DNA of 38,712 nucleotides from a virus (Duplodnaviria; Caudoviricetes), in the IMG/VR virus record IMGVR_UViG_3300028398_000011, positions 1-38,712 of that record; one strand, written 5' to 3'. The notes under the pieces were generated by a model, which saw only the letters and a program-made list of their open reading frames with translations, was not told the DNA's origin and did not search any database. Within the stretch, counting starts at the first letter, position 1. Every line of letters starts with the position of its first letter. Below, one piece after another: positions 12,252 through 14,784 of this stretch. Both the position numbers and the translations under genes were made by a program.

Positions 12252-12343
12252 AAAACTTCGTAGTCCTATGTAGCAAAACTTCGTAGTCCTATGTAGCAAA
12301 ACTTCGTAGTCCTATGTAGCAAAACTTCGTAGTCCTATGTAGC
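12252..12343. repeat. 23-bp perfect tandem repeat x4 (AAAACTTCGTAGTCCTATGTAGC), iteron-like
   Basis: Copies at 12252, 12275, 12298 and 12321. Confidence 0.95.
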
Positions 12344-12387
12344 ATTATATAAATATGGTCACTAATTTGTTAATAAGCTTACTTGGT

Positions 12388-12536
12388 ATCTATCTATTAT
12401 CTATTATCTATCTATCTATCTATTATCTATCTATCTATTATCTATCTATCTATTATCTATCTATCTATTATCTATTATCTATTATCTATTATCTATTATC
12501 TATTATCTATTATCTATTATCTATCTATCTATCTAT
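12388..12536. repeat. compound (TATC)/(TATTATC) microsatellite
   Basis: Read directly from the sequence. Confidence 0.95.
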
Positions 12537-12728
12537 CTGGTAGGTTATATCTATGTAGCATTATATAAATAGGTTAGTTATATCTATCTGGTAGGTTATA
12601 TCTATGTAGCATTATATAAATAGGTTAGTTATATCTGGTAGGTTATATCTATGTAGCATTATATAAATAGGTTAGTTATATCTGGTAGGTTATATCTATG
12701 TAGCATTATATAAATAGGTTAGTTATAT
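12537..12728. repeat. 47-bp tandem repeat x4 (CTGGTAGGTTATATCTATGTAGCATTATATAAATAGGTTAGTTATAT)
   Basis: Copies at 12537 (followed by an extra CTAT), 12588, 12635 and 12682. Confidence 0.95.
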
Positions 12729-12863
12729 CTATTATCTATTATCTATTATCTATTATCTATTATCTATTATCTATTATCTATTATCTATTATCTATCTGGT
12801 AGGTTATATCTATCTGGTAGGTTATATCTATCTGGTAGGTTATATCTATCTGGTAGGTTATAT
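12729..12863. repeat. (CTATTAT)n followed by 18-bp repeat x4 (CTATCTGGTAGGTTATAT)
   Basis: 7-mer run 12729-12791; 18-mers at 12792, 12810, 12828 and 12846. Confidence 0.95.
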
Positions 12864-12936
12864 CTCTATTGATATTTAAGTTTACTTTAAGGTTATTATA
12901 GTATAATTACACTATATTAAATAATAAAAGGAGTCA
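12861..12936 (+). promoter_or_regulatory. early promoter + RBS, copy 1
   Basis: TTTAAGTTTACTTTAAGGTTATTATAG-TATAAT...AAGGAG; near-identical to 13325-13400. Confidence 0.8.
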
Positions 12937-12939
12937 CAG

Positions 12940-13317
12940 ATGAAAAAATTAAGCGTAGAGGTAACTCAAGTGAGTAATAAAGATAAGAGTATAATTAGCC
13001 AAAGTAATATTAAAATTAGAGTCAATGGTAAATTTATAGAAAATGATATTGTAAAAATAATAGATAATTCTATAGATAAAAATAAAAGTGTAACTTATAA
13101 AATCTATATATACTATGGAAAAGTATATATAGATATAAAATATAAATCTGGTGTAACTAAAGAGTATAAGCTAGGAATTTCACAAATTGACCCTAGCTCG
13201 AGTATTAAAAGTATTAAGAACAAACTAGAGACATTAAGGGATTTTATTATGCAAGTAGAGAATGAGGTAGCAGAAGCACATAAATATACAAATAATTATC
13301 TAATAGAGATAAATTAA
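12940..13317 (+). CDS. hypothetical early protein
   Basis: AAGGAG RBS directly after the promoter. Confidence 0.75.
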   Translation: MKKLSVEVTQVSNKDKSIISQSNIKIRVNGKFIENDIVKIIDNSIDKNKSVTYKIYIYYGKVYIDIKYKSGVTKEYKLGISQIDPSSSIKSIKNKLETLRDFIMQVENEVAEAHKYTNNYLIEIN

Positions 13318-13324
13318 ATATCTC

Positions 13325-13400
13325 TATCTCTATTGATATTTAAGTTTACTTTAAGGTTATTATAGTATAATTACACTATATAAATAATAAAAAGGAGTCA
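13325..13400 (+). promoter_or_regulatory. early promoter + RBS, copy 2
   Basis: ~76-bp duplicate of 12861-12936. Confidence 0.8.
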
Positions 13401-13403
13401 AAG

Positions 13404-13934
13404 ATGACTATGAGTGTGGATTTTTTAAGAGGTTTTTTTTATGGTGCAGGAAGTTTAGATATTAAATTTGTATTTGATACTCTTGAAGAGTATGAATTAA
13501 GTTTTAATGATATTGTAGATGATGTTTACGATGATGAAACACAAACATATAATAGAGATATAAACGATTTTATAGTCGCAATATTCGAGACTATAAGAGA
13601 CATAAAAAAAGAGGCAGTAAAAGAGAGGTTAGAGGAGCTAGAGGAAGAGCTAGAGGAGGAGCTAGAGGCAGTAAAAGAGAGATTAGAGGAGTTAGAGGAA
13701 GAGGCAGAAAAAGAGCTAGAGGAAGAGCTAGAGGAAGAGCTAGAGGAAGAGCTAGAAGAGCTAGAAGAGTTAAAAGATGATATAAACGAATTACTAGAAG
13801 AGTTAGAGGAGTTAGACATACCTATTTATGCTAACTACTTAGACAGTTTCTTAAATCACAGTATTGACGATTTAGAGGTAGAAGACATTAAAAAATTGTC
13901 TATAGAAGAAATAAGAAAACTAATAAGGGAATAA
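13404..13934 (+). CDS. extremely acidic early protein with ELEE repeats
   Basis: About 65 of 176 residues are D/E; 12-nt GAGCTAGAGGAA repeats; own promoter and RBS. Confidence 0.75.
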   Translation: MTMSVDFLRGFFYGAGSLDIKFVFDTLEEYELSFNDIVDDVYDDETQTYNRDINDFIVAIFETIRDIKKEAVKERLEELEEELEEELEAVKERLEELEEEAEKELEEELEEELEEELEELEELKDDINELLEELEELDIPIYANYLDSFLNHSIDDLEVEDIKKLSIEEIRKLIRE

Positions 13935-13935
13935 T

Positions 13936-14466
13936 ATGACTATAGACGAGTTAAGGGCAATAGTTAAGGTATTCCCTGCTATTACAAGCAGGGAACTATT
14001 AAGATTAAAATTAAAGGATAAGATTATGAGTAAATTACTATATACACTAGATAGCAATAACTACAGTTATGAAGAGTGGGACGATGAATTAGATACACTA
14101 AAAGAAAATTTTAGTAATGACTTATTATTAACAGGTAATGCTGGTCTATGGTGTGGTAACCGTGAGTTAGAACCACAAAAAGTAGCAGGATTTGAAGAGT
14201 TTCTAAATCTTAAAGCAGATTTTGACTCTATGGAAATAGAAGTATATGAGAATAGAATAGAATTTGTAGGACATCATCACGACGGTAGCAACTTCTACAG
14301 ATTAGAGAAGATGGAGAGCTTAACAAATAAAGAGTTAAGAGATTTCCTAAAGGATAATGTTGAATTAGATGAGATAAATGAGTTCCTAAAAGATGGATGG
14401 CTTACCACATTAAGTAAAGCACCTAAGATTGCTTTGGTTGATGCGATAAATGAATTAATAGATTAA
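13936..14466 (+). CDS. acidic hypothetical early protein (possible second start at 14026)
   Basis: GGGA RBS at the first ATG; AAGGA RBS before the internal MSKLLY. Confidence 0.7.
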   Translation: MTIDELRAIVKVFPAITSRELLRLKLKDKIMSKLLYTLDSNNYSYEEWDDELDTLKENFSNDLLLTGNAGLWCGNRELEPQKVAGFEEFLNLKADFDSMEIEVYENRIEFVGHHHDGSNFYRLEKMESLTNKELRDFLKDNVELDEINEFLKDGWLTTLSKAPKIALVDAINELID

Positions 14467-14476
14467 GGATATTATT

Positions 14477-14605
14477 ATGAAAAAATTTATAAAGATAATA
14501 GACTTGATATTCTATTCAGCGTTTTATTTAGGAATATTAACCGTCTTATTTGCAATTAATCCAATTTTAGGATGGATTTTTATTGTATTATTCATATTTG
14601 GCTAA
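14477..14605 (+). CDS. small membrane protein (42 aa, ~2 TM)
   Basis: Below the cutoff; AAGGA RBS; MKKFIKIIDLIFYSAFYLGILTVLFAINPILGWIFIVLFIFG*. Confidence 0.65.
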   Translation: MKKFIKIIDLIFYSAFYLGILTVLFAINPILGWIFIVLFIFG

Positions 14606-14625
14606 TATAAATCTATTAGCCAAAT
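14596..14625 (+). terminator. hairpin ending the early cassette
   Basis: ATTTGGCTAATA-TAAATC-TATTAGCCAAAT perfect 12-bp stem; no clear U-tract. Confidence 0.55.
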
Positions 14626-14708
14626 AACTAACCTACAGATATAACTAACCTACAGATATAACTAACCTACAGATATAACTAACCTACAGATATAACTAAC
14701 CTACAGAT
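14624..14708. repeat. 17-bp tandem repeat x5 (ATAACTAACCTACAGAT)
   Basis: The reverse complement ATCTGTAGGTTAGTTAT matches parts of the left-array units. Confidence 0.95.
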
Positions 14709-14784
14709 AGATAGATAGATAGATAGATAGATAGATAGATAGATAGATAGATAGATAGATAGATAGATAGATAGATAGATAGAT
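14705..14784. repeat. (AGAT)x20 microsatellite
   Basis: Read directly; reverse complement of the left (TATC)n runs. Confidence 0.95.

What the first reader, a model, noticed from the sequence alone, without database searches (positions are those of the whole stretch)
12252..14784. Inverted TAGGTTA/(TATC)n repeat arrays flanking the early cassette: candidate prim-pol-primed bidirectional origin
Seen: the left array (12252-12863) carries 12 copies of TAGGTTA and long (TATC)/(TATTATC) runs on the plus strand. The right array (14624-14784) carries the same elements on the minus strand (5x TAACCTA, 20x AGAT). The units (17, 18, 23, 47 bp) are mosaics of shared modules. The arrays sit at the point of transcriptional divergence, one gene from an NrS-1-like prim-pol/helicase. 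Knowledge (recalled): the polymerase of Nitratiruptor phage NrS-1 initiates de novo synthesis at template 5'-TTTGGTTA-3', sharing the GGTTA core. Inference: priming on these templates would send nascent strands leftward from the left array and rightward from the right array, i.e. two divergent leading strands co-oriented with both gene arms. Alternatives are an invertible or recombining cassette, or a protein-loading scaffold.
Basis: partly seen in the sequence, partly recalled or inferred. Interest (0 to 1): 0.85.

Follow-up and report, generated by a model that had tools for sequence, protein, structure and literature searches.

The report
Mirror repeats beside likely phage origin
In an uncultured hydrothermal-vent phage, two real, mirror-image repeat arrays flank three genes that point the opposite way from those of related phages; the arrays are likely enlarged, flipped copies of a family-wide repeat feature next to a predicted helicase-loading origin, rather than the primer start sites first proposed.

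Summary
The arrays are real: 12 TAGGTTA on + (12541-12860), 5 on - (14629-14703), seen again in independently assembled contigs. The phage is a Kafunavirus/VPMS1-like podovirus with its own family A polymerase. Its prim-pol has an NrS-1-like helicase, but the arrays hold no TTTGGTTA and one GTG, NrS-1 itself has no array, and only 1 of 21 relatives has a GGTTA array (opposite polarity). Relatives do share the position: 22 of 26 have a short tandem array upstream of the small-gene/prim-pol operon, each with its own unit, and 13 of 21 have opposed short repeats as in SaPI iteron origins. In 14 of 14 mapped relatives the early genes face prim-pol; here they face away, so the mirror layout likely comes from a flipped or replaced block. 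Verdict: new variant of an iteron-type origin region; function untested.

The parts
9542..11911 (-). Primase-polymerase fused to SF3 helicase (789 aa), PriRep/NrS-1-like; predicted origin-loading protein
   Evidence: Pfam Prim-Pol and DUF5906; model pLDDT 87.6; NrS-1 CTR Z 22.4, SaPI5 PriRep Z 14.9-15.2, pRN1 prim-pol Z 9.4
11892..12197 (-). 101-aa gene directly upstream of prim-pol; many relatives have an HTH protein here, but homology was not detected
   Evidence: Start behind RBS and promoter; Atlas HTH leads at 0.85-0.86 only; no hit with relatives' HMM
12217..12249 (-). Predicted leftward promoter PL (TTTAAG, 21 nt, TATAAT) for the replication arm; abuts the left array
   Evidence: same spacing as P1 and P2
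12252..12865 (+). Left array: 23 bp x4, TATC/TATTATC run, 47 bp x4, 7 bp x10, 18 bp x4; 12 TAGGTTA; fills the space between two back-to-back promoters; weakest duplex in the genome
12861..12943 (+). Predicted early promoter P1; 83-bp copy P2 at 13325-13407 (93% identical)
   Evidence: (D10)
12940..14466 (+). Three early-type genes of unknown function, opposite in strand to the early genes of relatives
   Evidence: no homolog of the third
14595..14626 (+). 13-bp stem hairpin, likely terminator of the early block, abutting the right array
   Evidence: z -5.4, 0 of 200 shuffles
14624..14785 (-). Right array: 17 bp x5 (TAGGTTA on -) and AGAT x20
   Evidence: 17-bp units also in run X2
15007..15735 (.).
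   Evidence: (0 of 1000 shuffles, mean 0.07)
16030..16114 (+). G-rich runs 324 and 248 bp before the putative small terminase; possible packaging or genome-end marker
   Evidence: read; G/C runs at about -180 to -335 in 13 of 18 relatives vs 2 of 18 in their origin intervals
16155..16267 (+). 58-bp duplicate with TAGGTTA, upstream of the late (terminase) promoter

Best explanation
The two arrays are real and are likely slippage-enlarged copies of the short tandem arrays that this phage family keeps in its predicted replication-control DNA, and they likely face each other because this phage's early block was flipped or replaced, while the hexameric primase-helicase is predicted to load on double-stranded iterons, most likely the TGCATACA repeats at 15.0-15.7 kb. 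Shown: array anatomy, the family-wide position of arrays and opposed repeats, the reversed early genes, the fold of the helicase. Inferred: as in SaPI origins, the C-terminal domain of each helicase hexamer binds opposed iterons and melts nearby A+T-rich DNA; its primase domain primes; the phage's family A polymerase elongates. The TAGGTTA/GTAG units would be accessory protein-binding or spacer arrays beside promoters and the terminator, with easily melted TATC runs, not the sites that set the two leading strands.
For: Short-period arrays in 22 of 26 relatives' intervals upstream of the small-gene/prim-pol operon against 0.2% of shuffles and 9 of 18 terminase gaps; units differ and none matches the window beyond chance (best p 0.056). 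Opposed 6-mer sets in 13 of 21 such intervals vs 5 of 18 control gaps, e.g. AAGACA 5/8 in L094, GAGTCA 5/4 in L030, TATACA 7/5 in L092. TGCATACA 7+/2- in the window gap resembles TATACA of L092, the prim-pol with highest identity (32%), and lies downstream of the early genes as in relatives. Early ORFs on the prim-pol strand 51 vs 2 in 14 relatives; window 0 vs 3. SaPI5 PriRep is the second-best fold match; its origin is 6-12 short iterons opposed around A+T-rich DNA (PMC9371898 passages). PolA gene at 5658-7463.
Against: No binding or replication data. The degenerate clade motif was chosen after seeing the sequences, and 4 of 8 clade intervals do not show it. The window's iterons are uneven (7 vs 2), partly interleaved, spread over 720 bp and 3-4 kb from prim-pol. 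The winged-helix domain is only a lead. The weakest duplex is in the left array (z 3.8), not the gap (z 2.0). No relic inverted repeat marks inversion breakpoints (longest 10 nt), the early genes are not homologous to the relatives' conserved early protein, and L103 also has two reversed early ORFs. All relatives are distant (prim-pol about 30% identity).
Confidence: 0.45

Rival explanations
1. The left and right arrays are themselves the two opposed iteron arms of a split origin: helicase hexamers bind TAGGTTA/GTAG units as double-stranded DNA and melt the neighbouring TATC runs, with the 1.76-kb early block looped out between them.
For: Opposed orientation; blocks of 17-47-bp units alternate with the weakest duplex windows of the genome (ranks 1 and 2 at 60, 100 and 200 bp; right array rank 5 at 200 bp); in L094 and L017 the opposed repeats are themselves tandem; the left array lies where relatives have their origin-like interval.
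Against: The clade-like ACA motif is absent from both arrays and enriched in the gap (0, 0 vs 20 of 10.4 expected, post hoc); SaPI origins span about 300 bp without genes; in relatives the weakest duplex sits mostly at promoters and does not single out the origin interval (10 of 18).
Confidence: 0.2
2. One reading: the prim-pol primes de novo on single-stranded TAGGTTA, giving two divergent leading strands.
For: Geometry fits; NrS-1-like helicase; TAACCTA on coding strands 6 vs 1.67, 30 of 3860 comparable words as extreme; the NrS-1 paper suggests its two opposite sites may serve as origin (PMC7102993 passage).
Against: No TTTGGTTA and one GTG in the arrays; specificity domain not detectably NrS-1-like; no GGTTA array in clade-mates; L041's array has opposite polarity to prim-pol, is direct rather than inverted, and is a chance-level match (p 0.10); raw gene counts are 6 template vs 5 coding; many CTA/TAG words are enriched too.
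Confidence: 0.12
3. The arrays are transcription elements: operator or tandem promoter arrays that drive or insulate the back-to-back promoters.
For: The left array runs exactly from PL to P1; each 47-bp unit has TATAAT on -; AGGTTA also sits inside P1, P2 and the 58-bp repeats before the late promoter; in L041 TAACCTA arrays precede two promoter-like sites.
Against: The right array follows a terminator with no gene on its strand; promoter-like matches in the region are no more than chance (25 vs 28.4); no RNA data.
Confidence: 0.1
4. The arrays are neutral or recombinogenic slippage products that let the early block invert or be exchanged, like the repeat regions of Campylobacter group II phages.
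For: Reversed early block; inverted arms enclosing genes and unit-number change by slippage are described for CP21/CP220 (PMC4546147 passages); perfect units point to recent expansion.
Against: Only 22 nt of exact inverted identity; no recombinase among 42 proteins scanned, one weak HTH hit only; no strand-changing joint in two runs' contigs (weak test); position conserved across the family.
Confidence: 0.1
5. The arrays or the reversed block are an assembly artefact.
For: Microsatellite runs can be mis-sized; no listed contig spans the whole block.
Against: Both inner junctions are in independent contigs of X1 and the 17-bp array is in X2; shared inverted identity is too short to mis-join at usual k-mer sizes; PL and P1 are intact either side of the left array.
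Confidence: 0.03

Closest known systems
SaPI PriRep5/Rep1 iteron origin (PMC9371898; bioRxiv 10.64898/2026.10.17.759575)
   Same: Fused primase and SF3 helicase of similar fold (Z about 15); short repeats in opposed sets near the gene, in the window's gap and in 13 of 21 relatives.
   Different: Here the repeats are upstream, not directly downstream of the gene; a lytic-type podovirus with its own PolA; iterons spread over 720 bp; extra 0.8 kb of tandem arrays; winged helix not confirmed.
Nitratiruptor phage NrS-1 primase-polymerase (PMC8718748, PMC7102993)
   Same: Closest solved helicase (E 5.6e-52; Z 22.4); same domain order; small gene directly upstream; vent habitat.
   Different: 24% identity over 160 helicase residues only; specificity domain not matched; NrS-1 is an integrase-bearing phage with no other annotated polymerase and no array.
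Campylobacter group II phage (CP21, CP220, CPt10) repeat regions (PMC4546147)
   Same: Two repeat arms, sometimes inverted, enclosing genes; linked to inverted modules; unit number changes by slippage.
   Different: 72-86-bp units with a 13-bp core in several regions of 180-kb genomes; here 4-47-bp units at one locus, unrelated sequence.
Kafunavirus KF-1, Vibrio phage VPMS1, Pseudoalteromonas phage PH1, Dickeya phage Amaethon
   Same: Nearest named phages (capsid 32-38%, prim-pol 23-26%); duplicated 44-83-bp repeats and, in PH1, a 16/32-bp array near the early genes.
   Different: Terminase faces the early genes, not the capsid; early genes face prim-pol; no inverted array pair reported by TRF.

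Membership tests
NrS-1-type de novo priming system | Prim/Pol catalytic domain | tested here: met
   Pfam PF09250 above cut-off; D63, D65, H92 invariant in 16 sequences; Z 8.3 to 6A9W, 9.4 to pRN1
NrS-1-type de novo priming system | NrS-1-like C-terminal ring helicase | tested here: met
NrS-1-type de novo priming system | Helix-bundle domain homologous to NrS-1 (sets the site) | tested here: inconclusive
   hhalign probability 1.8%, columns 26-174 only; structural match stops at residue 160; domain not folded alone
NrS-1-type de novo priming system | TTTGGTTA or GTG sites in the candidate origin | tested here: not met
   0 TTTGGTTA; GTG once in the left array, never in the right
NrS-1-type de novo priming system | Prim-pol is the only phage polymerase | tested here: not met
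   PolA at 5658-7463, E 1.5e-46
NrS-1-type de novo priming system | Sequence-specific primer synthesis | not testable with these tools
   needs purified protein
SaPI-type PriRep iteron origin | Primase fused to SF3 hexameric helicase | tested here: met
   7OLA/7OM0 Z 14.9-15.2, rmsd 3.4-5.2, 211-289 aligned
SaPI-type PriRep iteron origin | C-terminal winged-helix origin-binding domain | tested here: inconclusive
   Atlas leads DUF3874 0.90, Pox_D5 cluster 0.89; TM under 0.45
SaPI-type PriRep iteron origin | 6-12 short iterons, at least two pointing each way | tested here: met
   TGCATACA 7+/2-; arrays 12+/5- also opposed
SaPI-type PriRep iteron origin | Central A+T-rich region between the opposed sets | tested here: inconclusive
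   lowest G+C of the gap at 15631-15720, beside rather than between the sets; z 2.0 for duplex weakness
SaPI-type PriRep iteron origin | About 300 bp, directly downstream of the rep gene | tested here: not met
   upstream, 720 bp (gap) or 2.5 kb (arrays)
Site-specific invertible segment | Recombinase gene in the element | tested here: not met
   none among 42 proteins, one weak HTH hit E 4.5e-4 in the exonuclease; contig lacks a few kb
Site-specific invertible segment | Matched inverted recombination sites | tested here: not met
   longest exact match 22 nt, mostly microsatellite
Site-specific invertible segment | Both orientations in the population | tested here: inconclusive
   contigs only, no strand-changing joint
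Campylobacter group II phage repeat regions | Two arms enclosing unique genes, direct or inverted | tested here: met
Campylobacter group II phage repeat regions | 72-86-bp units with the 13-bp core, several regions per genome | tested here: not met
   units of 4-47 bp at one locus; the units lack the core given

The most novel reading that the evidence does not exclude
A split phage origin: two inverted arrays 1.76 kb apart, each built of TAGGTTA units and the genome's most easily melted runs, load or prime an NrS-1-like primase-helicase in opposite directions around a gene cassette, in a family whose origin motif changes with each helicase.
Probability: 0.2. Interest if true: 0.8.

Novelty: new variant of a known kind. 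Interest (0 to 1): 0.5.

Why it matters
How NrS-1-like primase-helicases find their origin is open: PMC9371898 states that origin recognition by the NrS-1 C-terminal domain has not been addressed. This family offers about 25 natural helicase/repeat pairs at a fixed position with different motifs, and this phage separates two candidate signals (TAGGTTA arrays and TGCATACA repeats) that can be tested against each other in one binding experiment.

Tried and rejected
No RNA holder listed. Run X2 has no cover on the 18-bp array: no evidence. Rfam: 0 matches. GC skew as origin evidence rejected: it switches at both gene-strand changes, and fourfold sites give -0.03 (left arm), +0.26 and +0.03 (right arm halves). 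Duplex weakness does not mark the interval in relatives. L067's look-alike repeat is far from prim-pol context and was dropped. Shared TAACCTA with L041 and L102 is chance-level. Shared words between relatives' two gaps were only A+T-rich 9-16-mers. Genome ends at the arrays considered and set aside: contig ends cluster beside the terminase genes in relatives and the G-run marker is at 16.0-16.1 kb, though repeats can also break contigs. No CRISPR-like host match seen among the top rows. The careful tree did not finish; the quick tree was used, and the per-domain identity table did not run. Literature: no paper with 4 of 6 terms on such vent podovirus origins; one review on Kafunavirus, nothing on origins in the passages read; P4 ori1/crr is recalled only (one search found no usable paper). 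Supplements were not read; the SaPI preprint's origin figures could bear on the comparison.
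Full report
What the window is. The window is a whole 38,712-bp viral contig without terminal repeat, held by a hydrothermal-vent metagenome run. It encodes terminase, capsid, portal and DNA-ejection proteins on + and prim-pol, PolA, exonuclease, ligase and methyltransferase on -. 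The nearest named phages are KF-1, VPMS1, PH1 and Amaethon (12 records each for prim-pol and capsid). A Campylobacterota host is likely but not shown: bases 1-360 match chromosomal DNA at up to 80% in genomes of the phylum of G001 (297 of 401 had some match; no other phylum was searched), and the promoters have TATAAT with periodic TTTAAG rather than a -35 box, as described for C. jejuni (PMC3847290 passages).

Observation. Confirmed in number and place. The left array runs from the edge of a leftward promoter (12249) to the edge of the rightward promoter P1 (12861-12943); the right array starts at the terminator-like hairpin after the third early gene. The 23-, 7- and 4-bp units lack GGTTA. 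Contigs of two runs contain the inner junctions (X1) and the 17-bp array (X2), so an artefact is unlikely; the long TATC runs remain unverified.

The protein. A 100-sequence alignment gave a good model (pLDDT 87.6). Residues 298-652 match the NrS-1 C-terminal ring best (Z 22.4, rmsd 4.1, 289 aligned), then SaPI5 PriRep (Z 14.9, rmsd 5.2, 289 aligned); residues 1-164 match pRN1 ORF904 (Z 9.4) and NrS-1 (Z 8.3) about equally. The helix bundle that reads the priming site did not align to NrS-1. So 'NrS-1-like' holds for the helicase and gives no ground to transfer the recognition sequence. NrSPol prefers GTG over TTTGGTTA (PMC8718748 passages); the arrays contain neither in number. The deposited NrS-1 genome has one TTTGGTTA (1.95 expected; the paper says two) and no array upstream of its primase operon.

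Relatives. Terminase and prim-pol scans gave 80 + 3 + 5 viral, 7 metagenome and 80 genome loci; I used the sister group whose terminase faces the capsid, plus L092, L094, L098 and L099 found by prim-pol, one copy of each duplicate. The layout is: terS, gap, early genes, non-coding interval, small gene, prim-pol. Intervals were set by gene borders read from these maps; for L011, L021, L026 and L029 prim-pol was not in view. A short-period array lies in 22 of 26 intervals (0.2% of shuffles; 9 of 18 terS gaps). Units differ and none matches the window beyond chance. Opposed 6-mer sets pass p<=0.05 in 13 of 21 intervals and 5 of 18 terS gaps. A GGTTA array occurs in 1 of 21 (L041), on the opposite strand relative to prim-pol, in direct orientation, and L041's prim-pol falls outside the window's 8-member clade (support 99, quick tree, long branch).

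The mirror layout. In 14 of 14 mapped relatives early ORFs face prim-pol (51 vs 2); in the window all three face away. L101, L102, L104 and L106 agree with the rule; L103 has two reversed ORFs. The simplest account is one inversion or replacement of the early block, which leaves one array at PL and carries the other with the terminator. Breakpoints could not be found, and the window lacks the conserved early protein of 20 relatives, so replacement is as possible as inversion. Switching back and forth is not supported: 22 nt of exact identity, no recombinase.

A missed element. The gap right of the right array holds TGCATACA 7 times on + and twice on - (0 of 1000 shuffles reach it), about 200-fold over the rest of the genome. 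It lies downstream of the early genes like the relatives' opposed sets, with the same forward-then-reverse order, and resembles TATACA/TGTATA of L092. A degenerate motif made after the fact is enriched in 4 of 8 clade intervals, 1 of 13 others and the window gap, and absent from both arrays; this test is partly circular. SaPI origins are 6-12 short iterons, at least two pointing each way around A+T-rich DNA, bound by the helicase's winged helix (PMC9371898 passages; preprint passages). A G/C run 180-335 bp before terS in 13 of 18 relatives has its counterpart at 16030-16114, suggesting the packaging end lies there and not at the arrays.

Results against my reading. The TATC/TATTATC runs are the weakest duplex of the genome, fitting an unwinding role for the arrays themselves. 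The winged helix is only a lead. The gap iterons are uneven and far from the gene.

Verdict. A real feature. It most likely works like a SaPI-type iteron origin region with accessory arrays (0.45), or with the arrays as split iteron arms (0.2); NrS-1-type priming at GGTTA is less likely (0.12). It fails membership of the NrS-1, SaPI, invertible-segment and Campylobacter repeat-region families on at least one defining feature each. With 812 bp of non-coding arrays against 112-411 bp in 14 relatives it is the extreme member of a family trait for which my searches found no paper.

Noticed in passing
window coding regions: Strong avoidance of ACGT, GTAC, GCGC, GGCC, CCGG, CGCG (0 each), CATG (2), GAAGG, GGTGA, CTTTC, TCTAGA and GATC against synonymous shuffles; looks like escape from many host restriction enzymes.
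   Followed up: no
window 1-370: Cut thyX-like gene (identity recalled from the motif) 70-80% identical in DNA to chromosomal genes of the phylum of G001; likely taken from the host group.
   Followed up: partly
window 13945-14030: Hairpin (z -3.1) inside the listed ORF 13936-14466; the true start is probably the ATG at 14027 behind an RBS.
   Followed up: partly
window 4092-5513 and 13404-13934: Exonuclease with an HTH-like N-terminus and (EAE)8/(DE)12 linker; early protein with a long ELEEE repeat. Both coding repeats are near-perfect, so slippage is common in this genome.
   Followed up: no
L010-L106, first early genes: A conserved protein of about 150 aa (starting like MTKxQLW) occurs in 20 relatives and is absent from the window contig.
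   Followed up: partly
L094 6985-7225; L030 5910-6075; L017 5976-6116: Clear opposed iteron-like sets upstream of prim-pol, better test cases for a SaPI-type origin than the window.
   Followed up: partly
L043-L089: In the KF-1-like group 25 of 47 loci so classed end within 1 kb after the terL match, against none within 1 kb before it (some cut terL itself): probable genome end.
   Followed up: partly
window 15016-15036 and 15080-15100: Two copies of the P1 upstream motif (81% and 95%) without a -10 box.
   Followed up: no
L041 6696-6800 and 9160-9415: Second TAACCTA array before an early promoter, and opposed TAGTAG/CTACTA sets with an 11-bp array before terS.
   Followed up: partly
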